From contig MHII01000012.1 in NCBI GenBank assembly GCA_001817425.1, forward strand, positions 77 to 64,076: 64,000 nucleotides of DNA, written 5' to 3'. Positions within the stretch are counted from its first letter, which is position 1, and each line of letters starts with the position of its first letter. Position numbers and translations under genes: made by a program. The notes beneath the pieces were generated by a model, which was not told the origin of the DNA, made no database searches, and saw only the letters and a list, made by a program, of their open reading frames with translations. Positions 6,601 through 56,176 of this stretch are shown one piece after another. The DNA comes from Candidatus Buchananbacteria bacterium RIFCSPHIGHO2_02_FULL_39_17 (GTDB lineage: Bacteria; Patescibacteriota; Patescibacteriia; Buchananbacterales; UBA6539).

Positions 6601-7296
6601 ATGAATGTCCAGGTTGTTATTCCGGCTTACAATGAAGCAAAAACAATTTTTGAAATTATTAGAAAACTTAAAGATCAAGTCAGTCAAATCATTACGGTTG
6701 ATGACGGTTCAACAGATGACACCGGTGAATTAGCCAAACAGGCCGGAGCAAAAGTCTTAACTCATTTTTTAAATCGTGGCCAGGGTGCAGCACTGCAAAC
6801 TGGCATTTCTTTTGCTTTGGCGAATGGGGCGGAAATTATTGTCACTTTTGACGCCGATGGTCAGCATAATCCCGATGAGATTGATCAGGTCATTAAACCA
6901 TTATTGTTGGGTGAGGTAGATGTAGTGCTGGGTTCAAGATTTCTGGAATCAAGAATTAAGAATCAAGAATTAAGAATCAAGAATGTTCCTTTAATGAGGT
7001 TCGTTGTCTTGAAACTGGCGGCTTGGTTTACCCGGCTTTATACTGGTCTTAAAGTGACCGATGCCCATAATGGTTTTCGGGCTTTTTCGGCAAAAGCCGC
7101 CAGTTTAATTGAAATTAAGCAAGACGGGATGGCGCATGCTTCAGAAATTATTGAACAAATTAAAAAACAAGGCCTAAAATTCAAAGAAGTGCCGGTGGAA
7201 ATTAATTATACCAACTACTCATTGGAGAAGGGTCAAAAGTTAAGCAATTCCTGGAGGATTGTTTGGGATTTAATCATTAAGAGAATATCAAAATGA
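6601..7296 (+). CDS. Glycosyltransferase family 2 (dolichyl-phosphate mannose/glucose synthase-like)
   Basis: VVIPAYNEAKTI, DDGSTDDT and DADGQH motifs. Likely start is ATG 6601, just after the upstream TGA; the ORF track extends it to 6523. Contains an in-frame heptamer repeat tract at 6959-6998. Confidence 0.8.
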   Translation: MNVQVVIPAYNEAKTIFEIIRKLKDQVSQIITVDDGSTDDTGELAKQAGAKVLTHFLNRGQGAALQTGISFALANGAEIIVTFDADGQHNPDEIDQVIKPLLLGEVDVVLGSRFLESRIKNQELRIKNVPLMRFVVLKLAAWFTRLYTGLKVTDAHNGFRAFSAKAASLIEIKQDGMAHASEIIEQIKKQGLKFKEVPVEINYTNYSLEKGQKLSNSWRIVWDLIIKRISK

Positions 7297-8791: not shown

Positions 8792-8896
8792 GAAATAAAT
8801 TTTGAATTTTGAAATTTGAATTTTGAATCAATTTTGAATAACCGAATTTTGAAAAATTAAGATATTAGAATTTGAATCGAAATTCAAAATTAAAAA

Positions 8897-10711: not shown

Positions 10712-11860
10712 ATGAGAATTGCCATTATTACCCCCACTTTTCCGTCGTATGCCGGCGGCATTGGCAAGGTCGCGGCGTTTAACGCGCGAGAACTGAAAAA
10801 GCTTGGCCATCAGGTCACGGTTTTTACTCCTGACTATGAACCGGTTAAAGAAGAATTTACTGATTTAGAAATTAAGCGCATTAAGCCGCTTTTTAAATAT
10901 GGTAATGCCGCTTTTATTCCGGCTTTGGGTAAAATGCTCAAAGGTTTTGATATTATTCATCTCCATTATCCATTTTTCGGCGCCGCCGAAATTATTTGGC
11001 TCCATAATTCAAAATTCAAAATTCAAAATTCAAAATTGATTCTACATTACCATATGGATGTAGTCGGGCGCGGATGGTTAAAATTAATTTTCAAATTTCA
11101 CAATCAATTTATCTTGCCTAAAATTGTTAAAGCCGCGGATAAAATCATTTTCACTTCATTGGATTATAGTAAAAATTCAAATTTGGCAAAATGGTTGAAA
11201 AATCAGCCGTCAAAATTTGTGGCAATCCCCAACGGCGTTGACAGCCAAAATTTTTTACCTCAACTAAAAAGTCAAACCTTGCTGGAAAAATACCAGATTA
11301 ATCCTAGCGATAAAATTATCCTTTTTGTCGGCGGTTTAGACCAGGCGCATTATTTCAAAGGCATTGAATATTTACTCCAAGCGGTTTCGCGCCTGCGCCA
11401 AACCGCTTATTTTTGGAAATTAATCATTGTCGGCGAAGGTGATTTAAAAAATTATTATTCTGATTACGCCAATCAGTTAGGGCTTGATAATGAAGTAATA
11501 TTTAGTGGTTATGCTCCGGACGAGGATTTACCCAATTATTATAACTTGGCTGATGTTTGCGTTTTGCCCTCCATTGACAAATCTGAAGCTTTTGGCTTAG
11601 CTTTAATTGAGGCGATGGCGTGCGGAAAACCGGTCGTGGCAACAGATTTGGCCGGCGTGCGAAGCGTGGTTGAAGACGGGGTTAACGGGCTTTTGGCCCA
11701 GCCGAAAAATGCCGCTGATTTGGCGGCAAAAATTAATTATTTATTAATTAATCCCGAAATTGCCCAAGAGTTTGGCCACAACGGCCGGAAAAAAGTGGAA
11801 GAAGAGTATGAGTGGGGGAGGATCGGGAGAAAGCTAGATGAATTATATAAGAGTTTATAA
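10712..11860 (+). CDS. Glycosyltransferase family 4
   Basis: C-terminal EAFGLALIEAMACGKPVVATDLAGVRSVVEDGVNGLL (GT4 E-X7-E region). Contains an in-frame (attcaaa)x4 heptamer tract at 11006-11036, encoding NSKFKIQNSK. Confidence 0.8.
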   Translation: MRIAIITPTFPSYAGGIGKVAAFNARELKKLGHQVTVFTPDYEPVKEEFTDLEIKRIKPLFKYGNAAFIPALGKMLKGFDIIHLHYPFFGAAEIIWLHNSKFKIQNSKLILHYHMDVVGRGWLKLIFKFHNQFILPKIVKAADKIIFTSLDYSKNSNLAKWLKNQPSKFVAIPNGVDSQNFLPQLKSQTLLEKYQINPSDKIILFVGGLDQAHYFKGIEYLLQAVSRLRQTAYFWKLIIVGEGDLKNYYSDYANQLGLDNEVIFSGYAPDEDLPNYYNLADVCVLPSIDKSEAFGLALIEAMACGKPVVATDLAGVRSVVEDGVNGLLAQPKNAADLAAKINYLLINPEIAQEFGHNGRKKVEEEYEWGRIGRKLDELYKSL

Positions 11861-11866
11861 AAATTT

Positions 11867-11961
11867 CCCTCTTAAGATAAGAGGGGAGAGGGGAGTTATG
11901 AGTGTAAGTTTTAAAAAATTAATAACCCCATCCACCTCCCCCTTAATTTAAGGGGGGAGAG
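11867..11961. mobile_element. MITE-like derivative (~95 bp) of the DUF559 element, with hairpin termini and no ORF
   Basis: The left end ccctcttaagataagaggggagaggggagttatgag and right end taaccccatccacctcccccttaatttaaggggggagag closely match the two ends of the DUF559 element at 61224-61656. Only ~20 bp lies between them here. Confidence 0.6.
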
Positions 11962-18646: not shown

Positions 18647-20341
18647 ATGGAGTTTATTTTAACCCCAGTGGAAATCTGGCAATTGGCAGTAATTAAACTG
18701 TTTTTTTATTTATTTTTGATTTTTGGCATCATTTTATTTTTTAAATGGCCTAAGCCATTTTTATTTGTTTTATTAATCTCTTTATTTTTGGGGGGCACTT
18801 ATTTATTTTTAATTTGGCAGGCGCAATTGCCTTGGTGGAGTTTGCAGGGGGATGAGATTTTTGTCACTTCGTTTCTCCAGAAGGTCGCTTCCGGCAATTT
18901 CTTTTCTGATTTTTTTTATAAAAATTTGCCGTTATTTTATCCGCCGCTTTATTTTTGGCTGGTTGGCGGCTTAGCCTCATTTTTTAAGTTAAACGGCATA
19001 CAAGCGGCGCAGTTGGGCGTGGCTTTAGTTTTATTTTTATCGCCATTTTTAGTTTATTTTTGCCAAAAAATTTACTGGCGGCTTTCCAAAAAAGAAGGCA
19101 TTCCGGCCTGGAAATTAGCCGTTTTGACCGCCTCGGTTTTTCTGGTTTGGGATTGGACGGCGGTGATTTTAAAACCTTATGAATTCATTTCGGCGATTTT
19201 AATTGTTTTTTGGTCAATTTTTTTATTCCAGGATTTATATTTTAAAACTTTATCGCGGCTAAAAATTATCATCTATGGTCTGGGCGGCGGGCTTTTATTT
19301 TTGACTTTCCATTTCTGGTTTTTTCCTTTGGCTTTAGCAATTTTATTATTTAAATTATTTGTTGATGTTTCACATCTTTATTTTTACAGCCGCCTGAGCT
19401 TGATTGTCCTTTTAATCTTAATCATTGCTTGGCCGTTTTTATACCCTTTGATTAATTCGCTTTGGCAAAACGGCGGACAGAATTTTCAGCCCTTATTTTT
19501 TATCCCCAGCGATTTAAATTTAAAATTGCCATTTTTTGATTTTTCCATTTTAGGTTTAATTTCAATTTTTGGTTTGCTTTCAATAATTTTTTATTGGTCA
19601 AAACCGGCGGCTAAGGCGATGGGCATTTTGCTTGGTTCAATATATTTTTGGCAATTTCTGAATTTAATCGGCATTATCTTTTGGCAGGTTTCCGTTTTGC
19701 CGGCAAAACCTTTTTTGTTTTTAGGTACGGTAGTTTTAGATCTTGCTTTTGGTTATGGCATTATTCAGTGGCTGGAATCAAAAGGCGAAAACAAAAATCT
19801 GCAGACAGCCGCTTTCATTATTGGCTGGTTAGTTTTGTCAAGTCAGCTTTTGGGTGGAAATTTTGTTGATGATCCAGTTGTCCAGAAACGTTTGGTTGAA
19901 ATAAAAAAACCAATTCGTGAGGAATTTACCGATTTAATTAGAGAGCTTAAAACCGTTTCTAATTTAAATAATTTGGTTTTACTTTCAAGCAATATTCCGG
20001 AGATTTCGGCTTATTTGCCCTTGAATTATTACCTTAGCTATAATATCCATTTTTCTCATCCGGCGGCGAATTTTATTGATCGCTATAATTTTGTCACTGA
20101 TTTAGCGGCCAGTCAGAGTCCGGATCAATTTTATCAAAAAATAAAAAAAGCGCCGTTTCAGCCAATTGATAATTTATTATTTTTAAAAGGCAATGGTTTT
20201 TATCCAATCAATTTTTGGTACGAAAACTATCCAACCGGCGGTATTGAGCAAGAAATTAGAATTCCGTCTGACTTGATTAGTGAACAATATTTTGCTAAAA
20301 TTTTTGAAGACAAATACTTTGTTTTTTATAAGGTAAAATAA
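18647..20341 (+). CDS. Large polytopic membrane protein, GT-C-like
   Basis: More than 10 TM helices, a GDE motif in the first loop (WWSLQGDEIFVTSF), and a C-terminal soluble domain. Confidence 0.4.
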   Translation: MEFILTPVEIWQLAVIKLFFYLFLIFGIILFFKWPKPFLFVLLISLFLGGTYLFLIWQAQLPWWSLQGDEIFVTSFLQKVASGNFFSDFFYKNLPLFYPPLYFWLVGGLASFFKLNGIQAAQLGVALVLFLSPFLVYFCQKIYWRLSKKEGIPAWKLAVLTASVFLVWDWTAVILKPYEFISAILIVFWSIFLFQDLYFKTLSRLKIIIYGLGGGLLFLTFHFWFFPLALAILLFKLFVDVSHLYFYSRLSLIVLLILIIAWPFLYPLINSLWQNGGQNFQPLFFIPSDLNLKLPFFDFSILGLISIFGLLSIIFYWSKPAAKAMGILLGSIYFWQFLNLIGIIFWQVSVLPAKPFLFLGTVVLDLAFGYGIIQWLESKGENKNLQTAAFIIGWLVLSSQLLGGNFVDDPVVQKRLVEIKKPIREEFTDLIRELKTVSNLNNLVLLSSNIPEISAYLPLNYYLSYNIHFSHPAANFIDRYNFVTDLAASQSPDQFYQKIKKAPFQPIDNLLFLKGNGFYPINFWYENYPTGGIEQEIRIPSDLISEQYFAKIFEDKYFVFYKVK

Positions 20342-20428
20342 GTCAAAAATCAAAAATCAAAAGGCAAAAGTCAAAAGTTTAAGTCAAAATTCAAAAGCTG
20401 TAGTTTAATTACTTTTAACTTTTGAATT
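20342..20428. repeat. Partial copy of the caaaag-rich ~100-bp intergenic repeat that also flanks rmlA
   Basis: caaaaggcaaaagtcaaaag...acttttaacttttgaatt matches the start and end of the 22957-23059 arm. It ends ~6 bp before the HIT-gene ATG. Confidence 0.55.
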
Positions 20429-20431
20429 AAT

Positions 20432-20866
20432 ATGTCAGATTGTATTTTTTGTAAAATTGTGGCGGGTCAAATTCCGGCAGCTAAAATTTACGAGGACGAC
20501 AAAGTCTTGGCTTTTTTGGATATTAATCCGATCAATCCCGGCCATACTTTGGTTATTCCTAAAATTCATTTTTCCAATTTAACCCAAACGCCAGTTGAAG
20601 TTTCACAGAATTTAATTATGGTAATCAAAAAAATCAGTCCAGCCATCATGAAAGGCGTAGGCGCCCAAGGTTTTAATTTAGGGTTAAATAATGGTTCAAT
20701 CGCCGGCCAAATTATTTTTCATATGCATTTTCATTTAATACCGCGATTTGCCGATGATGGCCATAAACTTTGGTCTGGCCGGCAATATCAGCTAGGCGAA
20801 ATGGAAAAAGTTGCAGAAAACATAAAAAAATTCCTAATTCCTAATTCCTATTTCCTATATGGCTAA
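20432..20866 (+). CDS. HIT family hydrolase (histidine triad)
   Basis: HIT motif HMHFHLIP and the N-terminal CIFCKI zinc-binding-like motif. Confidence 0.8.
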   Translation: MSDCIFCKIVAGQIPAAKIYEDDKVLAFLDINPINPGHTLVIPKIHFSNLTQTPVEVSQNLIMVIKKISPAIMKGVGAQGFNLGLNNGSIAGQIIFHMHFHLIPRFADDGHKLWSGRQYQLGEMEKVAENIKKFLIPNSYFLYG

Positions 20867-21866
20867 GTTATTGGTAACAGGTGGAGCTGGCTTTATTGGC
20901 TCAAATTTTATCCATTATTGGTTGAAAACTCATCTTCAAGATGAGATTATTAATTTAGATAAATTGACTTACGCCGGCAATTTAGAGAACTTAAAAGACA
21001 TTGAAAAAAATCCAAATTATAAATTGGTGGTCGGCGATATTACTAACGTTGATATTGTTGGTAGTTTAGTTAAGGATTGCGATGCGGTCGTTCACTTGGC
21101 GGCGGAATCTCATGTTGACCGTTCAATTATGGATGCCGCTGAATTTATCCGGACCAATGTTTTAGGCACGCAAATTCTGCTTGACGCGGTTAAACAATAT
21201 GATAAACGTTTTCACCATGTTTCCACTGATGAAGTTTTCGGTGCCCTAACCCTAGAATCAAAAAATAAATTTAATGAAAATACGCCCTATCATCCAACTA
21301 GCCCTTACGCCGCTTCCAAAGCCGCTTCTGACCATTTAGTCAGGGCATTTATTTACACTCACAAAATTGCGGCGACTATCAGCAATTGTTCCAATAATTT
21401 TGGCCCATATCAATTCCCGGAAAAATTTATTCCCTTGGCCGTCACTAATTTGTTGGTCGGCAAAAAAATACCGGTGTATGGTGATGGCTTGTATGTCCGC
21501 GATTGGCTTTTTGTGGAAGATCATTGTCGCGGCATTGATTTAATTTTAGAGAAAGGGAGAATCGGTGAAACTTATTGCCTTGGCGGTATGACTAGTGAAA
21601 TCAATAATTTAGAGGTGATAAAAAAGATTTTAAAAATTTTAGGCGAAAGTGAAGATAAAATTGAGTTGGTCAAAGATCGGCCTGGGCACGACCGACGTTA
21701 TGCGATTAATTGGTCAAAGGCCAAACAAGAATTGGGCTACCAACCCCAGTTTGACTTTGACCGTTATTTAGAAAAAACTGTCCAATGGTATCAACAAAAC
21801 AAAAATTGGTGGCAAAATATTAAGTCCGGCAGTTATAAGGATTACTATGAAAAACAATATCAATAA
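20859..21866 (+). CDS. rmlB: dTDP-glucose 4,6-dehydratase
   Basis: MAKLLVTGGAGFIGSNFIHYWL, the catalytic YAASKAASDHLVRAF (Y..K) motif, and ~335 aa length. Confidence 0.9.
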   Translation: MAKLLVTGGAGFIGSNFIHYWLKTHLQDEIINLDKLTYAGNLENLKDIEKNPNYKLVVGDITNVDIVGSLVKDCDAVVHLAAESHVDRSIMDAAEFIRTNVLGTQILLDAVKQYDKRFHHVSTDEVFGALTLESKNKFNENTPYHPTSPYAASKAASDHLVRAFIYTHKIAATISNCSNNFGPYQFPEKFIPLAVTNLLVGKKIPVYGDGLYVRDWLFVEDHCRGIDLILEKGRIGETYCLGGMTSEINNLEVIKKILKILGESEDKIELVKDRPGHDRRYAINWSKAKQELGYQPQFDFDRYLEKTVQWYQQNKNWWQNIKSGSYKDYYEKQYQ

Positions 21867-22098
21867 AGATGATCAGTGATTTTAAAATAAAGTTGAGTTA
21901 CAAAGTAATCAAATAAATTAGAATTTTTAATTTTGATTTCCCGCAATTACGGGATCCTCGATTTTTCATCCCGCCACGGCGGGGGAAAAATCGGGACAAT
22001 TTTGAATATTAAAATATTGAATTATTCAATCAAAATTCTGATTTAAAAATTCAAAATTATTTAAACTTTAATCAGATAAAAAATTATTATCCTTATTT

Positions 22099-22953
22099 AT
22101 GGCCAATCAACGGAAAATCCTTATCCTTGGCGCAAACGGCATGCTGGGCCACGATCTGGCTGAAATTTTTTTTGATCAAAAACCAATTCTTTGGGATATG
22201 CCAAATCTTGATATTACTGATGAATTTGCGGTCAAACAAAAATTAGCTGATTTAATGCCTTCTTTAGTGATTAATGCCGCTGCCTATACTGACGTTGATG
22301 GTGCTCAAAATCAGCCAGATTTGGCGTTTAAGGTCAATGCCGACGCCATTGGCTACTTGGCAGTTGCCTGTCAGCAATTAGGGGCGATTTTGGTGCATTA
22401 CAGCACTGAATACGTTTTTTCCGGTAACAAGGATACTGGTTATCAAGAAGACGACAAAACTGATCCGTTAAATATTTATGGCCAGTCTAAAGCCAAAGGT
22501 GAAGAGATTTTAAAACAAAATTGTGAAATGTTTTATTTAATTCGTTCAAGCTGGCTTTACGGCCGTTCACCCCAAGTCGGCAAGCCGCGCGGCTTGAATT
22601 TCGTCCAAACTATGCTAAAATTGGCAGGTGAGGGTAAAGAGATTAATGTTGTTTCCGACCAGTTTGGCAAGCCGACTTATACTTTAGACTTAGCTAAAAA
22701 AACCCGGGAAATTATTGAAACTCAAAAGCCCTGCGGCATTTATCATGCGGTTAACGAAGGTGTTTGCAGCTGGTATGAATTTGCCAAAAAAATTTTTGAA
22801 ATAAAAAATATTTCCGCAAATTTAAATTCAATTAATTCAGATCAATATCCTTTGCCTACGCCACGGCCAAAATACAGCATTTTAGTTAACACCAAATTAG
22901 AGCCGTTGCGGAAGTGGGACGAGGCGTTGCGAGATTACCTACGGCAAAGTTAA
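22099..22953 (+). CDS. rmlD: dTDP-4-dehydrorhamnose reductase
   Basis: KILILGANGMLGHDL, YGQSKAKGEE, ~284 aa. Confidence 0.85.
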   Translation: MANQRKILILGANGMLGHDLAEIFFDQKPILWDMPNLDITDEFAVKQKLADLMPSLVINAAAYTDVDGAQNQPDLAFKVNADAIGYLAVACQQLGAILVHYSTEYVFSGNKDTGYQEDDKTDPLNIYGQSKAKGEEILKQNCEMFYLIRSSWLYGRSPQVGKPRGLNFVQTMLKLAGEGKEINVVSDQFGKPTYTLDLAKKTREIIETQKPCGIYHAVNEGVCSWYEFAKKIFEIKNISANLNSINSDQYPLPTPRPKYSILVNTKLEPLRKWDEALRDYLRQS

Positions 22954-22956
22954 AAG

Positions 22957-23059
22957 TCAAAAGGCAAAAGTCAAAATTGCAATTCAAAATTCAAAAGTAA
23001 AAAGTAATAATTTTGATTTTTAACTTGAACTTTTAATTTTTAACTTTTAACTTTTGAAT
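22957..23059. repeat. Left arm of the 103-bp inverted repeat enclosing rmlA
   Basis: Its reverse complement matches 23824-23926 at 102 of 103 positions. Built from caaaag/acttttaa units. Confidence 0.85.
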
Positions 23060-23064
23060 TTTTT

Positions 23065-23781
23065 ATGAAAGGCATAATTTTAGCCGGCGGGACCGGTTCG
23101 CGCTTGGATCCGCTGACTCGAGTCACCAATAAACATTTACTACCGATCTACGACCGGCCAATGATTTATTATCCGATTCAGACTTTAGTCAAAGCTGGCA
23201 TCACTGACATTATGATTGTTTCCGGCAAAGGCCATGCCGGGCAGTTTTTGGAATTACTTCAATCTGGTAAAGAATTGGGCGCGAAGTTTTCCTATGGCGT
23301 GCAAGAAGAAGCCGGCGGCATTGCCCAAGCCTTGGCCGTCTGCCAAGATTTTGCTGACAATGATAAAATTGTGGTAATGTTAGGCGATAATATTTTGCAA
23401 AATGATATTTCTAATGCCGTCAAAGATTTTGAAAAACAAGATAAGGGCTCAAAGATATTTTTAAAAGAAGTGGAAAATCCCAAATCTTTTGGCGTGGCGC
23501 AAATTGCCGGCGACAAAATCATTGAAATTGAAGAAAAACCAAAAAACCCCAAAACCAATTTAGCGGTTATTGGGGTTTATCTGTATGATAGTCAGGTTTG
23601 GCAAGTGATTAAAACTTTGAAACCTTCAGGGCGAGGCGAATTGGAAATCACTGATGTTAATAATTTTTACGTTAAAAAAGGGGAAATGACTTTTGAAATT
23701 TTGCGCGGCTGGTGGGGAGACGGAGGTGAGTCATTTGATAGTTTATTGGCGGCCGGGAATTTGGTTGCCAAGAAAAAATAA
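23065..23781 (+). CDS. rmlA: Glucose-1-phosphate thymidylyltransferase-like sugar-phosphate nucleotidyltransferase (short form)
   Basis: MKGIILAGGTGSRLDPLTRVTNKHLLPIYDRPMIYYPI is the nucleotidyltransferase signature. Adjacent to rmlB and rmlD. Confidence 0.7.
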   Translation: MKGIILAGGTGSRLDPLTRVTNKHLLPIYDRPMIYYPIQTLVKAGITDIMIVSGKGHAGQFLELLQSGKELGAKFSYGVQEEAGGIAQALAVCQDFADNDKIVVMLGDNILQNDISNAVKDFEKQDKGSKIFLKEVENPKSFGVAQIAGDKIIEIEEKPKNPKTNLAVIGVYLYDSQVWQVIKTLKPSGRGELEITDVNNFYVKKGEMTFEILRGWWGDGGESFDSLLAAGNLVAKKK

Positions 23782-23823
23782 TTTTTCAAGCACCAAATCC
23801 AAAATCACAAGCTCCAAATAATA

Positions 23824-23926
23824 ATTCAAAAGTTAAAAGTTAAAAATTAAAAGTTCAAGTTAAAAGTCAAAATTATTACTTTTTACTTTTGAATTTTGAA
23901 TTGCAATTTTGACTTTTGCCTTTTGA
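23824..23926. repeat. Right arm of the 103-bp inverted repeat enclosing rmlA
   Basis: Reverse complement of 22957-23059 with one mismatch. Confidence 0.85.
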
Positions 23927-23983
23927 ATTTTAACTTTGATGCTTATTTATAATTTGGAATTTATTTGAGATTTAATATTTCAA

Positions 23984-25357
23984 TTATTGAATTTCTAGTT
24001 GATAAATTCCCGCCGTTTGGCCAATTGCGCCTTGAAAATAAAGATTTTTTCCGTTTTGGTCCAGAAAAATCGAATTAATCTTTAAAGCTTCAACCAAGAT
24101 AATGTCATTTTTAATTTCGCCGCTACTATAATTTTCCAATGCTCGAATTTGATTGCCTGTTTGATAGATTAAATATGAACCGAGCGGATGCCAAATCACA
24201 TCATCAATCGTTTCGCTTAAGCGGGTGATTAATTCCTTTTCTTCACTTTTTAGATTAAGAACTTTTATTTCAAAATCAGTAAAGTACAACAACTGATTAA
24301 AATTTTTTGACCAAGATATTTTTTTTGCTTGATCGGTTAAGATGATGCTTTGGTTGATGTCGGCCGAGTCAAAAATTTGGCTTTTTATGACTAATAAGTC
24401 ATTATTTTTTTTATCTGATAAAATTAAAAAATTTTCTAAAGAATCTTTGAATTCATAAATAGAGAATTTTGGCAATTTTATTATTTTTAAATCATTTTCG
24501 CTACCATCCTCAATCGGTTTATTTTTTAAATAAATTTCGCCTTTTTCTTGGCTAATTAAGTAAAACTGATCATTAATAATTTCAAAATCAAAAACGTTAG
24601 CCTCCGCTAGATTGACGGTGTTGGCGATTAGATCGATTTGATAAAGCGCATTTTTCCTTAAACCATATAAGAAGAAATCATTATTTTTATTCCATTTAAT
24701 CTTTTCAAAATTTAACTTGGTTAGGGTCGTTAAATCCTTGATTTTTAAGGTTTCGGCATCTACGATCAAATATCGGTTAAAACTGCCGATGGTCATTTTT
24801 AAAAGCATTTTTGTTTTGTTCGGTGACCAACTGATAAATTCCAGTTGCTGATAATTTTTTTTATCAAATTTTTTAATATCAAGATTAACTTGATTTTTTA
24901 AGTTATAAATTTTTAGTTCTTCAATGCCGCGATTGATTACGGAGTAAATTATTTTTTCCTGATCCGGCACTAAAGAGAGTATATTAATTTCGCCGTTAAT
25001 GATATTAATGGGTAGGTTTTTTTTAAATAAAATAACATCTCTTTTGAAAGTGGTTAAATTGCTTTTAATTTCTAGTTTCTGTTGCCAGAAAGAATATCCG
25101 TTTTTTTTAATTTCTACGAGATATTGATCAGGTAAGAGGCGGCTAAAACGCGCTGGCGTTTGGCCTTGATATTTTTCGTCAAAATAAATTTCTGCTCCTT
25201 TTGGCATTGAATCAAGGTAGAGGATGCCGGTTTTTTCGAATTTATTTTTTTTGAAATTATAACGGTAGCCGGTGCTGTAAATAATTAAGGCTGGGGCAAT
25301 CGCCAAAAAAATGGCGAAAAATGAAAGGTATAAAATTCGGCGATATTTGAGATTCAT
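23984..25357 (-). CDS. Membrane-anchored PEGA-domain protein with a beta-propeller-like C-terminal region
   Basis: N-terminal TM helix, a PEGA-like segment (YLDSMPKGAEIYFDEKYQGQTPARF...YLVEIKKNGY), then a long beta-rich repeat region. Confidence 0.4.
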   Translation of the reverse strand: MNLKYRRILYLSFFAIFLAIAPALIIYSTGYRYNFKKNKFEKTGILYLDSMPKGAEIYFDEKYQGQTPARFSRLLPDQYLVEIKKNGYSFWQQKLEIKSNLTTFKRDVILFKKNLPINIINGEINILSLVPDQEKIIYSVINRGIEELKIYNLKNQVNLDIKKFDKKNYQQLEFISWSPNKTKMLLKMTIGSFNRYLIVDAETLKIKDLTTLTKLNFEKIKWNKNNDFFLYGLRKNALYQIDLIANTVNLAEANVFDFEIINDQFYLISQEKGEIYLKNKPIEDGSENDLKIIKLPKFSIYEFKDSLENFLILSDKKNNDLLVIKSQIFDSADINQSIILTDQAKKISWSKNFNQLLYFTDFEIKVLNLKSEEKELITRLSETIDDVIWHPLGSYLIYQTGNQIRALENYSSGEIKNDIILVEALKINSIFLDQNGKNLYFQGAIGQTAGIYQLEIQ

Positions 25358-30502: not shown

Positions 30503-31477
30503 TTGGCTCGCAATGACAAAATAAAAACTATGTCCAAATTCATCAAGCCATTTTCTCAACTTTCCAAAACCGACGTGAAAATTGCTGGCGGCAAGGGTGC
30601 GTCTTTAGGTGAGATGACGCATGCCAAAATTCCAGTGCCGCCAGGCTTTGTTGTATTAGCCCAAGCTTTTGACCGGTTTTTAGCGGAAACTGATTTAGTC
30701 GTGGAAGTGGAAGCGAATTTAAACAAAATAAATTATAAAGACACAAATTCCATTAACAAAGCATCAAATGTGATTCGCGATTTGATTCATGACTCAAAAA
30801 TGCCGCTTGATTTGCAAAAAGAAATTTTAGCGGAATTTAAAAAATTAAAAGCGAAGCTTGTCGCCGTTCGATCATCAGCCACAGCCGAAGATTCCTCTCA
30901 AGCGAGCTGGGCCGGAGAATTAGAAACATTTTTAAACACGACTGAGAAAAATTTATTAGGCAAAGTCAAACAATGCTGGTCATCGCTTTTTACACCTCGC
31001 GCAATTTTTTATCGCTTTGAAAAAGGATTGCGTAATTCTAAAGTATCTGTGGCGGCGGTGGTCCAGCAAATGGTTGATTCAGAAATTTCCGGCATTGCTT
31101 TTACCGTTCATCCCGTGACTAAAACTAAAAGTCAAATGATCATTGAAGCTGGCTGGGGTTTGGGTGAAGCCATAGTCTCTGGCCAGATTACGCCAGACAG
31201 TTATGTCATTGATAAAACAGATTTTTCCATTTTGGATATTAATGTATCGCAGCAAACAAAAATGTTAGTCAAAAAAGGCTCGGCTGGCGGCAATGTCTGG
31301 AAGCCAGTGCCAAAAAATCAGCAAGAAGCTCAAGTGTTATCTGGCAAACAAATAATCGAGCTAGCCAAAATTTGTGCTGGCATTGAAAAACATTACAAAA
31401 AACCGCAAGACATTGAGTGGGCATTTGCTAAAGGTAAATTTTATATTACCCAAAGCAGGCCGATTACGACGCTTTAA
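30503..31477 (+). CDS. PEP synthase / pyruvate phosphate dikinase N-terminal PEP/pyruvate-binding (ATP-grasp) domain protein
   Basis: IAGGKGASLGEM...PVPPGFVV and VAVRSSATAEDSSQASWAGELETFLN match the PPDK_N signature. It is a stand-alone domain here. Confidence 0.7.
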   Translation: MARNDKIKTMSKFIKPFSQLSKTDVKIAGGKGASLGEMTHAKIPVPPGFVVLAQAFDRFLAETDLVVEVEANLNKINYKDTNSINKASNVIRDLIHDSKMPLDLQKEILAEFKKLKAKLVAVRSSATAEDSSQASWAGELETFLNTTEKNLLGKVKQCWSSLFTPRAIFYRFEKGLRNSKVSVAAVVQQMVDSEISGIAFTVHPVTKTKSQMIIEAGWGLGEAIVSGQITPDSYVIDKTDFSILDINVSQQTKMLVKKGSAGGNVWKPVPKNQQEAQVLSGKQIIELAKICAGIEKHYKKPQDIEWAFAKGKFYITQSRPITTL

Positions 31478-31497
31478 TGAAAAATAACTTCCTCTTT

Positions 31498-31545
31498 CTC
31501 CCCCTTAAATTAAGGGGGGGGGTGAGAGGGGGTTAAATTTCAAAA
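31498..31545. repeat. Hairpin element related to the DUF559-element termini
   Basis: ctcccccttaaattaaggggggg followed by gagagggggtta, cf. 11936-11959 and 61634-61656. Confidence 0.5.
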
Positions 31546-32595: not shown

Positions 32596-32645
32596 TAGAG
32601 ATAAAAATTAGCTTTTTAGCTTCCTTAGCTTTTTAGGTAAAAAAT

Positions 32646-32684
32646 CTACAAGCTACAAGCTACAAGCTACAAGCTACAAGCTAA
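32646..32684. repeat. Tandem heptamer (ctacaag)x5 immediately upstream of the pyrG start
   Basis: ctacaagctacaagctacaagctacaagctacaagcta ends 4 bp before the pyrG ATG. The same ctacaagct motif lies upstream of GT4 (10686-10705) and at the edges of the in-frame palindromic elements in murD and fpg. Confidence 0.8.
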
Positions 32685-32688
32685 AACT

Positions 32689-40398: not shown

Positions 40399-40856
40399 TA
40401 AAAATCAGAAATAGCTGAACTTAATTGGGTTGATTTTTCCGAGGTGCCAACTGTTGAGGGCCAAAAAACCGTTACCGTAATTTTTTTCAGTCCAGTATCG
40501 TTGGCGCTAACATTAAAATTACTGTCAAGATATTCAACAATTGTCTGTCTTTGAAAAGCGTAATAAAAATCAGTCGGATCACTTGATAATCTTTGTTTGG
40601 CTTCAATCGTGCCAGTGCTGATATTGTCGTAGCCTAGGCTGATGACTTCTTCAATTTTTGCCACGGCTAAATTAGAGGCGGTAGTTAATCTTTGGGCATC
40701 GCCGGTGATTTTCAAGCTTAAAGGGAAAATTTGAACCACGGCAAAAAGGCCAACCATTAAAATCATTGTGGCAATGGCCGCTTCAATAATGGTAAACCCC
40801 GCACTATGTTGGCGTAAGTTATTTTTGTCAATTTTTATAAATGATTTTTTAAACAT
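40398..40856 (-). CDS. Prepilin-type N-terminal cleavage/methylation domain protein (pseudopilin)
   Basis: RQHSAGFTIIEAAIATMILMVGLFAVVQIF. Confidence 0.65.
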   Translation of the reverse strand: MFKKSFIKIDKNNLRQHSAGFTIIEAAIATMILMVGLFAVVQIFPLSLKITGDAQRLTTASNLAVAKIEEVISLGYDNISTGTIEAKQRLSSDPTDFYYAFQRQTIVEYLDSNFNVSANDTGLKKITVTVFWPSTVGTSEKSTQLSSAISDF

Positions 40857-40922
40857 TACTATTTTTTTGATTATTCTTTATGAATTTTGGTATCTACTGA
40901 ATTAACGCCAACATAGTGCGGG
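40797..40922. repeat. Long-range inverted repeat around the start of prepilin gene 40398-40856
   Basis: ccccgcactatgttggcg (40797-40814, codes RQHSAG) and cgccaacatagtgcgggg (40905-40922) are an 18-bp perfect inverted repeat. The 90-bp spacer contains the ATG. Confidence 0.8.
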
Positions 40923-40936
40923 GTAAACCCTTGTTT

Positions 40937-41419
40937 TTAATCAATAACTTCAACATAGCCTGATGGTTTGATGTTTATCGTGGATATTTGACTTCTGGTG
41001 TTAGTCAAGGTAATTGAGCCGGTTTCCGCCACCCCGCCTGTCGGATTGAAACTGACTAAATCATTAGTCAGGCCAGAGATTTGACTGATGGAAACTTCAG
41101 TGTCTAAATTAACTTCTTTATTGACGTTACTGGTTTCCGAATTAACGATTTGATATTTTTTAGTTAGGGGAAAGAGTTTGAGCTGATAAATTTTTTGTTC
41201 CGTGACAGCTAATTGCTGGGTAAGCCGTAAATTGGTGGCTAAGACCCGAGCCTCACTTTTTAATTTGGTGTTTTTTTGGTAGTTGACAAAAAGCGGGGCG
41301 CTAATAATTGAAATAAAAGCGATAATACCTAAAACCGCAGCAAGCTCAGTAATCGTAAACCCCGCACTTTGTTGGCGTAGGTAATTTTTGTTTATTCTTT
41401 TGAAAATATTTTTAACTAT
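40937..41419 (-). CDS. Prepilin-type protein; reading frame intact but no ATG start (ATA at the aligned start position)
   Basis: Manual minus-strand translation gives IVKNIFKRINKNYLRQQSAGFTITELAAVLGIIAFISIISAPLF...GYVEVID*. It aligns codon for codon with MFKKSFIKIDKNNLRQHSAGFT of the neighbouring gene. It is absent from the ORF track because it lacks ATG. Confidence 0.45.
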   Translation of the reverse strand: MVKNIFKRINKNYLRQQSAGFTITELAAVLGIIAFISIISAPLFVNYQKNTKLKSEARVLATNLRLTQQLAVTEQKIYQLKLFPLTKKYQIVNSETSNVNKEVNLDTEVSISQISGLTNDLVSFNPTGGVAETGSITLTNTRSQISTINIKPSGYVEVID

Positions 41420-41486
41420 TTATCATTTATTAATTTATTTTTTGAACCTAAAATTTTGAGGAATAAATGCCAACATAGTGCGGGGT
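41360..41486. repeat. Long-range inverted repeat around the start of the prepilin reading frame 40937-41419
   Basis: ccccgcactttgttggc (41360-41376) against gccaacatagtgcgggg (41470-41486), 16 of 17 complementary. Spacer ~90 bp. Confidence 0.7.
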
Positions 41487-46271: not shown

Positions 46272-49007
46272 ATGAATAAAGAAGAAAGTAAAAAACAGAT
46301 TAAAAGGCTAGTGGAAAAATATCAAAATTTTACCCCAAGCCAAAAAAGAGAATGCAATGAATCAATGATTTGCAAAGATTTTGTTTTGCCTCTTTTTCAG
46401 GCGCTTGGCTGGGACGTTTATAATAATTTTGGCCACGAAGTGGCTTCGGAAGCGCAAATTTCAGGTAAAAGAGCCGATTATGCTTTTTATGTTAATGACG
46501 TGATAAAATTTTTTGTTGAAGCAAAAAAACCGTCGGTTGATTTACGGGAAGAAAAATTAGCCGAGCAGGCGGTATTTTATGCTTGGCACAAAAGCGTGCC
46601 TTGGGCAATATTGACGAATTTTGAAGTGATTAAAGTTTTTAACGCCGAATGGGACGAACCGGATGTGGAAAGAAGTCTAATTTTTGAAATCAATTACAAA
46701 GATTTTTTGCAAGACGAAAAATTGTGGTGGCTTTCCAAAGAATCAATGGAAAAAGGCGAGTTAGATCAATATGCGCAGGAAAATTTTAAAAAACCGAAAA
46801 GAGAACCAGTTGATAAGCAATTAGCTAACGATTTAGTCAGATGGCGGACAGCGTTATTTAGCGATCTTAGTCAATGGAATCGCGATAAAAATTTGGGTGA
46901 AAAAAATATTGCCAAGGCCGTCCAACAGTTATTGGACAGCTTTATTTTTATTCGCACGACTGAAGACAGAAAAATTGAAGGGGAACGGCTTCGGGAACTA
47001 GTCAGAAATTGGGAGGAAGAAAAAAAGACAATTAATTTAGGAGATGAGCTAAAAAAGTTATTCCAGCACTATAATGACGGTTATGATAGCAGATTATTTG
47101 AATTATCAGTCTGCGATAAATTGGAATATGAAGACAGCTTGTTTGCCGATGTAATCAAGCAACTATATAAAAATAAAAAAGGCATCCGTTATGATTTTGC
47201 GTCAATTAATGCTGATGTTTTAGGCAGTATTTACGAACAATATTTGGGACAAATTCAGGAAAGCGAAAAAAATAAAAGTAAAAGAAAATCTCAAGGGATT
47301 TATTATACGCCAAGATACATTGTTGATTATATTGTCAAAAATACTTTAGGCGAATTATTGAAAGGCAAGTCTGGCTTTGAGGCTTCAAAGATTAAAATAT
47401 TAGATCCGGCCTGCGGGTCAGGGTCATTTTTGATTAAAGCTTTTGAAGTTATAGATAATCATATTCAGAGAGAAAATAACCAGATAAACGCGCAAAAATT
47501 CACCAATTACGCCAGAAAGGTCGCGATTTTAACGGCAAATATCTATGGCGTTGACTTGGATGAAGAGGCCGTGGAAATTGCTCAATTAAATTTATTGCTA
47601 AAAGTTCTTGAACAAAGAGAGAAATTGCCAAATTTAGGACATAATATTGAAAACGGCAATTCTTTAATCTCTGGTGAACCAAAAGAATTGGAGAAATATT
47701 TTGGCAAGGGCTGGAAAGCCAAAAAGCCGTTTAACTGGGAAGAAAAATTTTCCGGTGTATTTAAGCAAGGCGGATTTGATGTGATTATTGGTAATCCGCC
47801 TTATATTGATTCGGAGGAGATGGTTAAAAATGATAAAAATTTTAGAATTTATTGCACTGAATTTTATGAAGGTGCTAAGGGGAATTGGGATATTTTTTGT
47901 ATATTTGTTGAAAAAGCATTAAACCTGTTGAGGGTAGGAGGTTATTTAGGAATGATTATTCCTAATAAGATACTATCTGCCGATTATGCTGATTCCGTTA
48001 GAAAAATGATAGAAGAATATTCAGTAGTTTCTATAAATGATTATTCAGGTATAAAAGTTTTTGGCGCCAGTGTCTATCCTATCGTTTTAATAATACAGAA
48101 ATTAAAACCTATACAAGATCATAAAATTATTGTCAATTCTTATACTATAGATAAGGAAGTTATTAAAATAGAGGATAGTAAAAAAATTAGTCAAACGATG
48201 CTGAAAGAATACAAAAATAGTTGGTCTCCTATATTTAATTATTCTGAGAATGAAAATTTTATTGATAGAATTACAAAAAGTAGTCAGAGATTAAAAGAAA
48301 TTTGTGATATTCACGGTGCCGCTACAGTAAATGAGGCCTATGAATTAAAAAAGATAGTCAAAAATTTAAAAGATGAAGATAAAGATGAATACTTTAAATT
48401 TATTAACACTGGAACTATTGATAGATATACCTCTCTGTGGGATCACCAAAAAACCCAATATATCAAAGCAAGCTATCTTAGGCCAGTAGTTATAAAGAAA
48501 AAATTACGTGAATTATTGCCTAACAGATATTTAGATTCAACAAAAAGTAAATTGATTGTAGCTGGTATGACAAAAAAGATGGAGTGTTTTTTTGACGAGC
48601 GTGGAGAATATTTAGCAGGTAAATCCACTACAATAATCGAAAACAATAAATTAGATCTTAAATTTATTTTAGCATTATTAAATAGTAAGTTGTTGACATT
48701 TATTTTTAAAAATATTTTTAAATCGCTATCTTTGCAAGGAGGGTATCTAAGGATAGGCGCCCCTCAAATTAAAGAGTTGCCAGTCATTATGGCGAATAAA
48801 AATGAAATGTCGGTAATTATAAAATTAACTGATAAAATTTTCATTTTAAACAAAAAATTTCAAACAATAGACCCTATTTTATACAAGGAAGAATATGAAG
48901 AAAAGAAAAAAGAAATTGAAAAAACCGACCGAGAAATTGACCAAAAAGTTTATGAGCTTTACGGCTTGATGGCGGAGGAGATTAAGATCGTGGAAGGAAA
49001 AAAATAA
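46272..49007 (+). CDS. MmeI-family type IIL/IIG restriction-modification enzyme (PD-ExK nuclease, gamma-class N6-adenine methyltransferase and TRD fused)
   Basis: The N-terminus ADYAFY...FVEAKKP gives a D-X10-E-X-K nuclease motif. Methyltransferase motif I is DPACGSGSFL and motif IV is GNPPY. Length is 911 aa; MmeI is about 919. The C-terminal half (~47850-48900) is visibly more AT-rich than the N-terminal half. Confidence 0.75.
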   Translation: MNKEESKKQIKRLVEKYQNFTPSQKRECNESMICKDFVLPLFQALGWDVYNNFGHEVASEAQISGKRADYAFYVNDVIKFFVEAKKPSVDLREEKLAEQAVFYAWHKSVPWAILTNFEVIKVFNAEWDEPDVERSLIFEINYKDFLQDEKLWWLSKESMEKGELDQYAQENFKKPKREPVDKQLANDLVRWRTALFSDLSQWNRDKNLGEKNIAKAVQQLLDSFIFIRTTEDRKIEGERLRELVRNWEEEKKTINLGDELKKLFQHYNDGYDSRLFELSVCDKLEYEDSLFADVIKQLYKNKKGIRYDFASINADVLGSIYEQYLGQIQESEKNKSKRKSQGIYYTPRYIVDYIVKNTLGELLKGKSGFEASKIKILDPACGSGSFLIKAFEVIDNHIQRENNQINAQKFTNYARKVAILTANIYGVDLDEEAVEIAQLNLLLKVLEQREKLPNLGHNIENGNSLISGEPKELEKYFGKGWKAKKPFNWEEKFSGVFKQGGFDVIIGNPPYIDSEEMVKNDKNFRIYCTEFYEGAKGNWDIFCIFVEKALNLLRVGGYLGMIIPNKILSADYADSVRKMIEEYSVVSINDYSGIKVFGASVYPIVLIIQKLKPIQDHKIIVNSYTIDKEVIKIEDSKKISQTMLKEYKNSWSPIFNYSENENFIDRITKSSQRLKEICDIHGAATVNEAYELKKIVKNLKDEDKDEYFKFINTGTIDRYTSLWDHQKTQYIKASYLRPVVIKKKLRELLPNRYLDSTKSKLIVAGMTKKMECFFDERGEYLAGKSTTIIENNKLDLKFILALLNSKLLTFIFKNIFKSLSLQGGYLRIGAPQIKELPVIMANKNEMSVIIKLTDKIFILNKKFQTIDPILYKEEYEEKKKEIEKTDREIDQKVYELYGLMAEEIKIVEGKK

Positions 49008-56076: not shown

Positions 56077-56176
56077 AATTCGAATTTTGATTCAATATCT
56101 TAATATTTTAATTTTTAAAAATTCAGATATTCAAAATTGATTCAAAATTCAAAATTAAAAATTCAGATTTTTACGT

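What the first reader, a model, noticed from the sequence alone, without database searches (positions are those of the whole stretch)
22957..23926. rmlA is enclosed by near-perfect 103-bp inverted repeats, a candidate invertible or mobilisable cassette in the dTDP-rhamnose locus
22957-23059 and 23824-23926 are reverse complements, identical at 102 of 103 positions. They sit 5 bp upstream and 42 bp downstream of the 717-bp nucleotidyltransferase gene. Recombination between the arms would invert rmlA relative to rmlB-rmlD, giving on/off control of rhamnose-containing surface glycan.

The arms belong to a caaaag-rich repeat family also found upstream of the HIT gene (20342-20428), always ending a few bp before an ATG. 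They may therefore also be portable promoter modules. Near-identity of the two arms implies recent duplication or ongoing gene conversion.
Basis: seen in the sequence. Interest (0 to 1): 0.6.

Follow-up and report, generated by a model that had tools for sequence, protein, structure and literature searches.

The report
Palindromic heptamer repeats flanking rmlA
The near-identical inverted repeats around rmlA are real, but they are two recent copies of a common 119-base hairpin-forming spacer element of this groundwater bacterium, and nothing found here shows that they act as a gene-flipping switch.

Summary
22957-23059 and 23824-23926 are reverse complements at 102/103 positions. The match extends to 22945-23063 / 23820-23938 at 116/119, against 17-23 nt for the longest inverted repeat in simulated sequence.

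- Each arm is itself an imperfect palindrome: about 7-nt units (AAAAGTC)n, a loop, then (GACTTTT)n.
- The host is Candidatus Buchananbacteria (Patescibacteria). Its spacers are full of such heptamer hairpins (33 period-7 arrays against about 4 expected).
- Full-length relatives of the arm (75-85% identity) fill spacers in unrelated gene contexts on other low-GC contigs.
- Sister lineages have rmlD and rmlA overlapping (ATGA), or a different heptamer hairpin at that site. They have an older conserved hairpin, without the arm, downstream of rmlA.
- rmlA is native to the locus.
- The 64-kb window encodes no recombinase or transposase.
- All 14 independent assemblies show one orientation.
- No target-site duplication was found.

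Strain variants show the arms diverging (113-117/119), with hints of patchy conversion between the arms.

Best reading: a MITE/REP-like, heptamer-periodic palindromic spacer element copied over pre-existing spacer hairpins. It probably acts, if at all, as a co-transcribed hairpin. Rare RecA-mediated inversion or a 116-bp RNA panhandle remain untested.

The parts
22945..23063 (+). Left arm. A 119-nt heptamer-periodic palindromic element that fills the rmlD-rmlA spacer. It supplies the last two codons and the stop codon of rmlD and ends 1 nt before the rmlA ATG.
   Evidence: Inverted repeat I1. Internal hairpin 22946-22991 / 23009-23054 at 78%. TRF period 7. Absent in L011, L214 and L216, where rmlD and rmlA overlap as ATGA.
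23820..23938 (-). Right arm. The same element in the opposite orientation, nested in the apex of an older hairpin between the convergent 3' ends of rmlA and the PEGA-domain gene.
   Evidence: 116/119 complementary to the left arm. RNA fold -31 kcal/mol, z -5.1. L011 carries the outer hairpin without the arm.
20340..20428 (+). Third, shorter and more diverged family member, in the AftA_N-HIT spacer, ending 3 nt before the HIT ATG.
   Evidence: D1 87% over 52 nt and D6 90% over 21 nt. L011 has an unrelated (CTAACAG)x9 array at the same site.
23065..23781 (+). rmlA-type glucose-1-phosphate thymidylyltransferase, the enclosed gene. It is native to the locus.
   Evidence: PF00483, E 1e-56. Same position and orientation in L011, L012, L214 and L216. 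Third-position identity to L011 is 0.69, against 0.49-0.65 for the neighbouring genes.
23782..23819 (+). 5' half of the older outer hairpin (CCAAATCC/AAAATCA units), conserved with the sister species.
   Evidence: 49 of the 52 window bases compared (23770-23821) are identical to L011, i.e. the last codons of rmlA, its stop codon and the spacer up to the arm. It pairs with 23939-23975 in the fold of the spacer.
23939..23983 (+). 3' half of the older outer hairpin, plus the spacer up to the stop codon of the PEGA-domain gene.
   Evidence: TTATAATTTGGAATTTATTTGAGAT is conserved with L011; fold.
22099..22953 (+). rmlD. Its C-terminal tail (..DYLRQS*) differs from the L011 type (..DYLNFNYL*) because of the spacer element.
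   Evidence: PF04321, E 4e-87. Tail comparisons.

Best explanation
The two arms are two copies, in opposite orientation, of a roughly 119-nt non-coding palindromic repeat. Each copy is built from mirrored arrays of about 7-nt units: an A-rich array, a loop, then the complementary T-rich array.

Such elements are the normal filling of intergenic and intercistronic spacers in this Candidatus Buchananbacteria genome and in related Patescibacteria. In the lineage of the window, one sequence variant was recently copied into two spacers that already held hairpins: the rmlD-rmlA junction and the apex of the terminator-like hairpin downstream of rmlA. An older copy lies upstream of the HIT gene. The enclosure of rmlA is therefore a by-product of local spread of a spacer element, not a dedicated switch.

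**Shown**
- Identity and palindromic anatomy of the arms.
- Membership of a family found in unrelated gene contexts.
- Empty or differently filled sites in sister lineages.
- No recombinase or transposase in 64 kb.
- A fixed orientation in all assemblies.
- No target-site duplication.

**Inferred**
- Copying works by overwriting. This would be gene conversion or template switching, primed by the short A/T-rich heptamer homologies shared by all these hairpins, rather than cut-and-paste transposition.
- Once in place, the element is co-transcribed. It acts as an RNA hairpin that separates cistrons (termination, attenuation, or mRNA processing and stability) and uncouples rmlA translation from rmlD.
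For: **Anatomy**
- Searches give the arm identity, the internal palindrome and the 7-nt periodicity.

**Genome habit**
- 33 TRF rows of period 7 against 4.3 in simulations. 19 of the 29 merged arrays lie in the 10% of the window that is non-coding.
- Other spacer hairpins lie at 8792-8896, 21998-22098, 32596-32688, 53443-53628, 54538-54678 and 56077-56176.

**Family**
- L209, L108, L135, L195, L096, L163, L178, L144 and L121 match the arm over about 104-121 aligned nt at 77-84% identity.
- Nearly all fill spacers, mostly between co-directional genes and abutting the downstream start codon, in unrelated contexts and in both orientations.
- L178, L195 and L108 carry the element between ftsW and murG homologues. 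The window has only 41 nt there.

**Recency and site history**
- L011, L214 and L216 (RmlA 92-93% identical) have an ATGA overlap of rmlD and rmlA.
- L217 has the same RmlA protein as L216 but carries a different AAATCTA-type hairpin at that site, and shares the window-type rmlD tail.
- L011 keeps the outer hairpin downstream of rmlA without the arm.

**Local copying**
- The three best repeat pairs in the window lie within 3.6 kb of each other (arm/arm; arm/copy 3; 53487-53632 / 54541-54686).

**No enzyme, and a static arrangement**
- No recombinase or transposase.
- 14 assemblies share one orientation, with no length polymorphism in the arms.

**Patchy conversion**
-.
Against: - The copy number in the whole genome is unknown. 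Only 64 kb was available, with 3 copies of this subfamily.
- A transposase elsewhere in the genome cannot be excluded. A Y1 (IS200/IS605 or RAYT-like) enzyme would also leave no target-site duplication.
- The empty sites come from lineages that are strongly diverged at synonymous sites (third-position identity 0.5-0.7). Junction details such as replacement versus clean insertion may therefore have been blurred.
- Support for a conserved RNA structure is weak. The RNAalifold consensus energy is -0.3 kcal/mol. Mirror pairing is 74.5% against 73.1% in column shuffles (13 of 500 shuffles reach it), with modest covariation (17 cells against 11.6; 7 of 500).
- No transcript data were available, so any function is inference.
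- The apparent conversion between the arms could be an artefact of de Bruijn graph assembly, which collapses inverted repeats.
Confidence: 0.6

Rival explanations
1. Classical MITE. The element is a non-autonomous transposon, mobilised in trans by a transposase encoded elsewhere in the genome, that inserted independently at both sides of rmlA.
For: - Size (about 119 nt), A+T richness, a long stem-loop, terminal inverted symmetry and an intergenic location match the MITE properties listed in PMC2229807.
- Filled and empty sites exist among relatives.
- Family members are dispersed in unrelated contexts.
Against: - No target-site duplication at either site when compared with the empty sites. Both events look like replacements, of about 14 nt and about 32 nt of earlier sequence, rather than clean insertions.
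- No transposase in 64 kb.
- The same sites carry unrelated heptamer hairpins in relatives. This fits turnover of the site filling better than rare insertion.
Confidence: 0.2
2. Invertible cassette. Recombination between the arms flips rmlA and changes the rhamnose-containing surface glycan.
For: - 116/119 identity over 119 nt is more than enough for RecA-dependent recombination (established knowledge).
- The locus is a surface-polysaccharide locus.
- There are hints of sequence exchange between the arms.
Against: - All 14 assemblies, from different samples and assemblers, show one orientation.
- No invertase in the window.
- The arms are ordinary spacer elements that are also found singly.
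- Strains tolerate arm divergence down to 113-114/119.
- Inversion would leave the same arm in front of rmlA, so on/off control is not an obvious outcome.
Confidence: 0.07
3. RNA panhandle. In a polycistronic rmlB-rmlD-rmlA transcript the two arms pair with each other into a roughly 116-bp duplex that loops out rmlA. This would create an RNase III substrate that processes or destabilises the rmlA message.
For: - The minimum-free-energy fold of 22930-23950 pairs 116 inter-arm positions. The duplex is -153 kcal/mol, against -21 and -30 kcal/mol for the two local hairpins.
- Correia/NEMIS stem-loops have been proposed to regulate adjacent transcripts through RNase III (PMC2229807).
Against: - No transcript data.
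- The local hairpins would form first, during transcription.
- The older hairpin plus the arm may terminate transcription before the full right arm is made.
- Sister lineages do without the arrangement.
- Whether the genome encodes RNase III was not checked.
Confidence: 0.1
4. Portable promoter or 5'-UTR module. The arm provides rmlA and the HIT gene with their own promoter or translation-initiation leader.
For: - The left arm and copy 3 end 1-5 nt before the ATG. Most family members abut a downstream start codon.
- No Shine-Dalgarno sequence is visible, so an A/U-rich leader could matter.
- There is one 9/12 promoter-like site per arm.
- Heptamer arrays directly upstream of start codons are known elsewhere (PMC4679880).
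Against: - Promoter-like sites are not enriched over shuffles (11 against 12.8).
- The -10 hexamer of that site lies in the family's variable loop.
- Family members occur in both orientations relative to the downstream gene.
- The right arm faces two stop codons.
Confidence: 0.08

Closest known systems
Bacterial MITE-like intergenic repeats (ERIC/IRU 127 bp, Correia/NEMIS, RUP 107 bp, Rickettsia RPE)
   Same: About 100-150 nt, non-coding, A+T-rich, a long imperfect stem-loop, intergenic and co-transcribed positions, filled and empty sites among relatives, occasional in-frame presence in genes (PMC2229807).
   Different: - No TA termini or target-site duplication was seen.
- The internal structure is a mirrored array of about 7-nt units.
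- The same sites carry unrelated heptamer hairpins in relatives.
- No candidate transposase was found.
Heptanucleotide simple-sequence repeats (cyanobacterial heptamer repeats, Beggiatoaceae TAACTGA arrays, Xanthomonas GGGAATC arrays)
   Same: Seven-nt tandem units, strongly intergenic, often directly upstream of start codons. Array sequence and length differ between close species. Inverted pairs of arrays that can form stem-loops were noted in Xanthomonas (PMC4679880; PMC4692102).
   Different: - Here many different units coexist in one genome (AAAAGTC, AATTCAA, AGAATCA, CTACAAG, AAATTCT).
- The arrays are systematically mirrored into palindromes.
- A whole 119-nt palindrome is copied as a unit.
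- No slippage-type length variation appears among 14 strain assemblies.
REP/BIME elements with RAYT transposases
   Same: Intergenic palindromes at the ends of genes and between cistrons. Roles in mRNA stability and termination (own knowledge).
   Different: REPs are 20-40 nt, G+C-rich, and carry a conserved GTAG-type head. No RAYT gene was seen in the window. These arms are 119 nt with 18-21% G+C.
Repetitive hairpin-forming elements of organelle genomes (sponge mitochondrial DNA RHE, Volvox palindromic repeats)
   Same: Hairpin elements with no enzyme of their own that invade and fill intergenic regions, differ between close taxa, and disperse within a genome (PMC2800124; PMC2670323 abstract).
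   Different: These occur in organelles rather than in bacterial chromosomes. No heptamer periodicity has been reported for them.
Site-specific DNA inversion switches (fimS, hin, Bacteroides invertons)
   Same: Inverted repeats flank a DNA segment in a surface-structure locus.
   Different: Those have short inverted repeats, an adjacent invertase, a promoter or alternative gene ends inside the segment, and both orientations present in populations. None of these was found here.

Membership tests
Site-specific invertible DNA switch (inverton) | Inverted repeats bound the segment | tested here: met
   116/119 inverted repeat. It is far longer than typical inverton repeats, and each arm is itself a palindrome.
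Site-specific invertible DNA switch (inverton) | A tyrosine or serine recombinase encoded next to or near the segment | tested here: not met
   Pfam scans of nearly all sizeable ORFs of the 64-kb window found no recombinase, integrase or transposase domain. The rest of the genome was not available.
Site-specific invertible DNA switch (inverton) | Both orientations present in the population | tested here: not met
   14 independent assemblies from different samples all have the same orientation. Raw reads could not be examined, so a rare minority orientation is not excluded.
Bacterial MITE | Short (under 200-300 bp), non-coding, A+T-rich, terminal inverted repeats, stem-loop transcript | tested here: met
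   119 nt, spacer G+C 0.18-0.21, internal palindrome at 78%, fold energies -21 to -31 kcal/mol.
Bacterial MITE | Target-site duplication (often TA) at filled sites compared with empty sites | tested here: not met
   Comparison with the empty sites in L011 and L216 shows no duplication. About 14 nt (left) and about 32 nt (right) of earlier sequence were replaced.
Bacterial MITE | Many dispersed copies in one genome, and a cognate transposase with matching ends | tested here: inconclusive
   There are 3 copies in 64 kb. Full-length relatives lie on other contigs in unrelated contexts, but the whole genome was not available and no transposase was seen.
REP/BIME with RAYT | 20-40 nt G+C-rich palindrome with a conserved tetranucleotide head, and a RAYT gene | tested here: not met
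   The arms are 119 nt and A+T-rich. No Y1 transposase domain is in the window.
Heptanucleotide long simple-sequence repeats | Tandem 7-nt units over-represented and concentrated in intergenic DNA | tested here: met
   33 TRF period-7 rows against 4.3 in Markov simulations. 19 of 29 arrays lie in the 10% non-coding fraction.
Heptanucleotide long simple-sequence repeats | Copy-number (slippage) variation between strains, as in phase-variable repeats | tested here: not met
   Only substitutions, and no indels, occur in the arms across the 14 assemblies. No indel falls in any other heptamer array in the whole-locus alignments of L001-L010.
Composite transposon / mobilised gene cassette | The enclosed gene is foreign to the locus and the flanking repeats are insertion-sequence elements | tested here: not met
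   rmlA has the same position and neighbours in relatives that lack the arms. Its synonymous divergence is comparable to that of its neighbours. The arms encode nothing.
Described RNA families (Rfam 15) | A match to a curated covariance model | tested here: not met
   No gathering-score hit in the window or in 14 related loci (the only hits were two tRNAs). Only chance-level E-value hits fall in 20200-24100.

The most novel reading that the evidence does not exclude
Heptamer-periodic palindromes may be an undescribed class of self-propagating spacer element in Patescibacteria that needs no enzyme of its own. They would overwrite neighbouring intergenic hairpins by conversion primed on the shared A4/T4 heptamer register.

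When two copies come to flank a gene in opposite orientation, as around rmlA, they would create a functional unit. This could be a 116-bp RNA panhandle that is processed to set rmlA dosage. Alternatively it could be a RecA-driven inversion that moves rmlA between the rmlBD operon and the convergent PEGA-domain gene transcript.
Probability: 0.12. Interest if true: 0.65.

Novelty: new variant of a known kind. Interest (0 to 1): 0.3.

Why it matters
**Annotation.** Long, near-perfect inverted repeats around a surface-glycan gene look like a phase-variation switch. In this Patescibacteria genome they are the ordinary spacer filling, and should not be annotated as invertons without read-level evidence.

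**Biology.** These tiny genomes are about 90% coding, yet they keep and rapidly exchange roughly 100-nt hairpins in most operon spacers:
- the same site carries AAAAGTC-type, AAATCTA-type, CTAACAG-type or no array in close relatives;
- arrays even sit in frame inside genes.

This raises two questions: how such elements spread without visible transposases, and whether they replace classical terminators, ribosome-binding leaders or RNA processing sites in organisms with reduced regulatory equipment. Both can be tested with existing Rifle metagenomes and metatranscriptomes.

Tried and rejected
1. **Chance or low complexity.** Rejected by simulation and by the 70-83% background identity among other heptamer hairpins.
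2. **Assembly artefact.** Rejected. The structure is present in 14 assemblies made with several assemblers. The conversion-like variants alone may still be artefacts.
3. **Known RNA family.** No Rfam match.
4. **Promoter or terminator consensus.** Promoter-like sites are at the shuffle expectation. The listed terminator-like sites lie inside genes, not in the arms.
5. **Recombinase or transposase nearby.** None found.
6. **rmlA as imported cargo.** Rejected by synteny and codon-level divergence. RmlA is simply the most conserved protein of the locus.
7. **Target-site duplications.** None found.
8. **Conserved RNA structure in the family.** The RNAalifold consensus is about 0 kcal/mol. The mirror structure is paired in 74.5% of cells, mostly through invariant A4/T4 blocks, and covariation is only modest.
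9. **Genome-wide copy count through the metagenome scan.** This failed.
10. **Literature on heptamer hairpins in the Candidate Phyla Radiation.** Nothing found.
11. **TIGR arrays** (surfaced by the literature search). Dismissed: the 7-nt units bear no resemblance to them, and none of the proteins scanned against Pfam has a domain of that kind.
12. **Scan of viral contigs.** Only 3 hits, not followed up.
Full report
**1. The observation**

22957-23059 and the reverse complement of 23824-23926 agree at 102 of 103 positions; the mismatch is 23017 T against 23866 G. The similarity runs on to 22945-23063 / 23820-23938 at 116/119.

Ten Markov-3 simulations of the window gave longest inverted repeats of 17-23 nt. 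The next best inverted pair in the real window is 100 nt at 78%.

The enclosed ORF, 23065-23781, is a nucleotidyltransferase of the RmlA type (PF00483, E 1e-56). It follows a HIT gene, rmlB and rmlD, and faces a convergent PEGA-domain gene. A third, shorter relative of the arms lies at 20340-20428 in front of the HIT gene.

**2.

Each arm is itself an imperfect palindrome: 22946-22991 pairs with 23009-23054 at 78%. Each half is a tandem array of about 7-nt units. These are AAAAGTC/AAAAGGC/AAAATTC on the 5' side and the complementary CTTTTAA/CTTTTGA units on the 3' side.

This is a habit of the whole window. TRF finds 33 period-7 rows against 4.3 in simulated sequence. Of the 29 merged arrays, 19 sit in the 10% of the window that is non-coding.

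Folded spacers at 8792-8896, 21998-22098, 32596-32688, 53443-53628, 54538-54678 and 56077-56176 are hairpins of the same build with other units (AATTTTG, CTACAAG, AAATTCT).

**3. Organism and population**

The RmlA protein is identical to that of Candidatus Buchananbacteria bacterium RIFCSPHIGHO2_02_FULL_39_17, a Patescibacteria (Candidate Phyla Radiation) genome from Rifle groundwater.

The exact protein, or a one-residue variant, is carried by contigs from many samples. Thirteen of these were retrieved with flanks (L001-L010, L211-L213). They are 99.6-99.9% identical to the window and all have the same gene order and rmlA orientation.

The arms are polymorphic by substitution only:

| Arm | Alleles seen |
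|---|---|
| Left (22964, 22978, 22992, 23017) | GTCT, GTCC, TATC |
| Right (mirrored 22956, 22964, 22978, 22992) | TGTC, GGTC, GGTT |

Arm-to-arm identity ranges from 113 to 117 of 119. The lowest value is L213, which carries N at the four polymorphic left-arm sites.

One left-arm haplotype carries five substitutions within 83 nt (22935-23017), against a background of about one per kb. Outgroups (L011 for 22935; L209 for 22978 and 22992) suggest this haplotype is the derived one.

Both variants seen in the right arm (23891 in L006; 23927 in L006 and L010) change it to the state of the left arm of the same assembly. This suggests short conversion tracts between the arms. De Bruijn assemblers collapse inverted repeats, however, so it needs reads to confirm.

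**4. Relatives: the arms are recent and the sites turn over**

In the sister lineages L011, L214 and L216 (RmlA 92-93% identical), rmlD and rmlA overlap by ATGA. There is no spacer and no left arm.

L217 encodes the same RmlA protein as L216. It has a spacer of about 100 nt holding a different heptamer hairpin (AAATCTA/TTAGATT units), and its rmlD tail (..YLSQS*) resembles that of the window (..YLRQS*). That site therefore carried a hairpin before the present arm sequence occupied it.

Downstream of rmlA, L011 has a hairpin of CCAAATCC/AAAATCA units. Its outer halves are almost identical to the window: 49 of the 52 window bases compared on the 5' side, and TTATAATTTGGAATTTATTTGAGAT on the 3' side. 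The right arm is absent from L011. In the window the arm replaces about 32 nt at the apex of that hairpin.

Upstream of the HIT gene, L011 has (CTAACAG)x9 where the window has copy 3. L012 (RmlA 81% identical) has no arms.

No target-site duplication is visible at either arm.

rmlA itself is native to the locus. Its neighbours are the same in relatives. Its third-codon-position identity to L011 is 0.69, against 0.49-0.65 for the other genes compared at this locus.

**5. The arm is a member of a dispersed family**

Nearly all hits show heptamer arrays of this type, and most are followed by the mirrored T-rich array.

Nine low-GC contigs carry full-length relatives of the arm, with 77-84% identity over about 104-121 aligned nt. 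The match includes the irregular AAAATTGCAAGT / ACTTGTAATTTT centre.

Nearly all fill a spacer, in unrelated gene contexts, mostly between co-directional genes and abutting the next start codon. They occur in either orientation relative to transcription.

L178, L195 and L108 carry the element between ftsW and murG homologues, where the window has only 41 nt.

Within the window, the three most similar hairpin pairs are all less than 3.6 kb apart:
- arm / arm;
- arm / copy 3;
- 53487-53632 / 54541-54686, which flank a patatin gene inside the mur cluster.

This points to local copying.

**6. What was not found**

- No Rfam family.
- No recombinase, integrase or transposase domain in the proteins of the window.
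- No excess of promoter-like sites.
- No length variation of the arrays among strains.

Structural conservation across the family is weak. The RNAalifold consensus energy is about zero. The mirror structure is paired in 74.5% of cells, against 73.1% in column shuffles and 58% when slid by one column. Double-sided changes are modestly enriched, at 17 against 11.6. The A4/T4 blocks carry the pairing, and the variable unit positions are often mismatched.

**7. Explanation**

The best-supported reading is as follows. rmlA is flanked by two recent copies of a MITE/REP-like spacer element with heptamer periodicity and palindromic symmetry, typical of this lineage. The copies overwrote earlier hairpins at two neighbouring spacers.

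I infer a homology-assisted copying mechanism (gene conversion or template switching on the shared heptamer register). The reasons are:
- replacement-type junctions;
- absence of duplications;
- local clustering of similar copies;
- hints of conversion between the arms;
- absence of a transposase.

A trans-acting transposase remains a serious rival, especially a Y1-type enzyme, which leaves no duplication.

Functionally, the typical position fills intercistronic spacers up to the next ATG, in either orientation. This suggests a symmetric role as a co-transcribed hairpin, such as termination or attenuation, or mRNA processing and stability as shown for ERIC and proposed for Correia elements (PMC2229807). 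It may equally have no role.

One consequence in the window is established by the sequence. The rmlD-rmlA translational coupling (ATGA) seen in sister lineages is replaced by a 111-nt structured spacer with no Shine-Dalgarno motif.

Two special consequences of the inverted pair are possible but untested:
- rare RecA-mediated inversion;
- a 116-bp inter-arm RNA duplex (-153 kcal/mol, against -51 kcal/mol for the two local hairpins together) that could be an RNase III substrate.

**8. Comparison with known systems, and verdict**

Heptanucleotide repeats are the most abundant class of long simple-sequence repeats in many bacteria. They are known directly upstream of start codons, and occasionally as inverted pairs (PMC4679880; PMC4692102). 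Palindromic repeats of about 100-150 nt are known as MITE-like elements (PMC2229807). Hairpin elements with no enzyme of their own that invade spacers are known from organelle genomes (PMC2800124).

The present element combines these features. I found no description of it for Patescibacteria. I therefore rate it a new variant of a known kind.

The specific claim of an invertible or mobilisable rmlA cassette is not supported. Overall interest is modest.

Noticed in passing
window 6946-6984, 11006-11037, 20829-20857, 50726-50790: Heptamer arrays also lie inside coding regions. (GAATCAA/GAATTAA)x5.6 encodes ..ESRIKNQELRIKN.. in frame within a family-2 glycosyltransferase gene. (AATTCAA)x4.6 lies inside a family-4 glycosyltransferase gene. 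(AATTCCT)x4 lies at the 3' end of the HIT gene, where it meets rmlB. A 65-nt array lies inside a MurD-like ligase gene.
   Followed up: partly
window 53487-53632 and 54541-54686: Two direct copies (76% over 146 nt) of an AAATTCT-type heptamer hairpin flank a patatin-like phospholipase gene (53629-54537). The gene sits between murG and murC in the cell-wall cluster. This is a second case of a gene bracketed by sibling spacer elements.
   Followed up: partly
window 8797-8896 and 56072-56171; 22000-22063 and 56057-56120: Distant pairs of AATTTTG/AATTCAA-type hairpins (78-83% complementary, 34-47 kb apart). Sibling elements are therefore not only local.
   Followed up: no
window 11861-11961, 31478-31544, 61200-61256, 61617-61654: A second, G+C-rich palindromic repeat family (..CTCCCCCTTAAnTTAAGGGGGAG..) occupies other spacers. 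It looks like terminator or REP-like hairpins.
   Followed up: no
L011 3615-3686: The sister species carries (CTAACAG)x9 immediately before the HIT start codon. The window has the AAAAGTC-type copy 3 at that site, so the array has been completely replaced at a conserved position.
   Followed up: partly
L216 3860-4040 versus L217 1-260: Two contigs encode the identical RmlA protein but differ by a hairpin spacer of about 118 nt at the rmlD-rmlA junction. Nucleotide identity jumps from 89% in the rmlD tail to 97% in rmlA, which suggests a recombination breakpoint at the junction.
   Followed up: partly
L165 1361-2063, L183 4536-4990, L172, L162, L136 (G+C about 0.63): High-GC contigs, some apparently from soil metagenomes, carry (AAAAGKC)n arms around a G+C-rich palindromic core (GTGATTCGGTACGC...GCGTACCGAATCAC), in several copies per contig. 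This is an unrelated-looking palindromic element that uses the same A-rich heptamer arms. No Rfam match.
   Followed up: partly
L091 2461-2525 versus window 31273-31283: A relative's PPDK_N-domain gene has an insertion of about 63 nt made of AAAAGKC heptamers. The insertion lies between two blocks that align to the window gene.
   Followed up: no
window 46272-49007: An Eco57I/MmeI-like fused restriction-modification gene and a NYN-domain gene sit between a family-4 glycosyltransferase gene (MraY/WecA type) and a MurD-like ligase gene, upstream of ftsW, murG and murC.
   Followed up: no
window 40783-40879, 41346-41442, 40785-40935: A 97-nt direct repeat (74%) and a 36-nt inverted repeat (83%) lie in a 677-nt stretch without a called ORF, next to the type IV pilus genes. 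They may be duplicated or degraded pilin gene starts.
   Followed up: no
L213 (JGI 3300002502), positions equivalent to window 22964, 22978, 22992, 23017: This assembly has N at exactly the four polymorphic left-arm sites. Both left-arm haplotypes therefore probably coexist in one sample.
   Followed up: no
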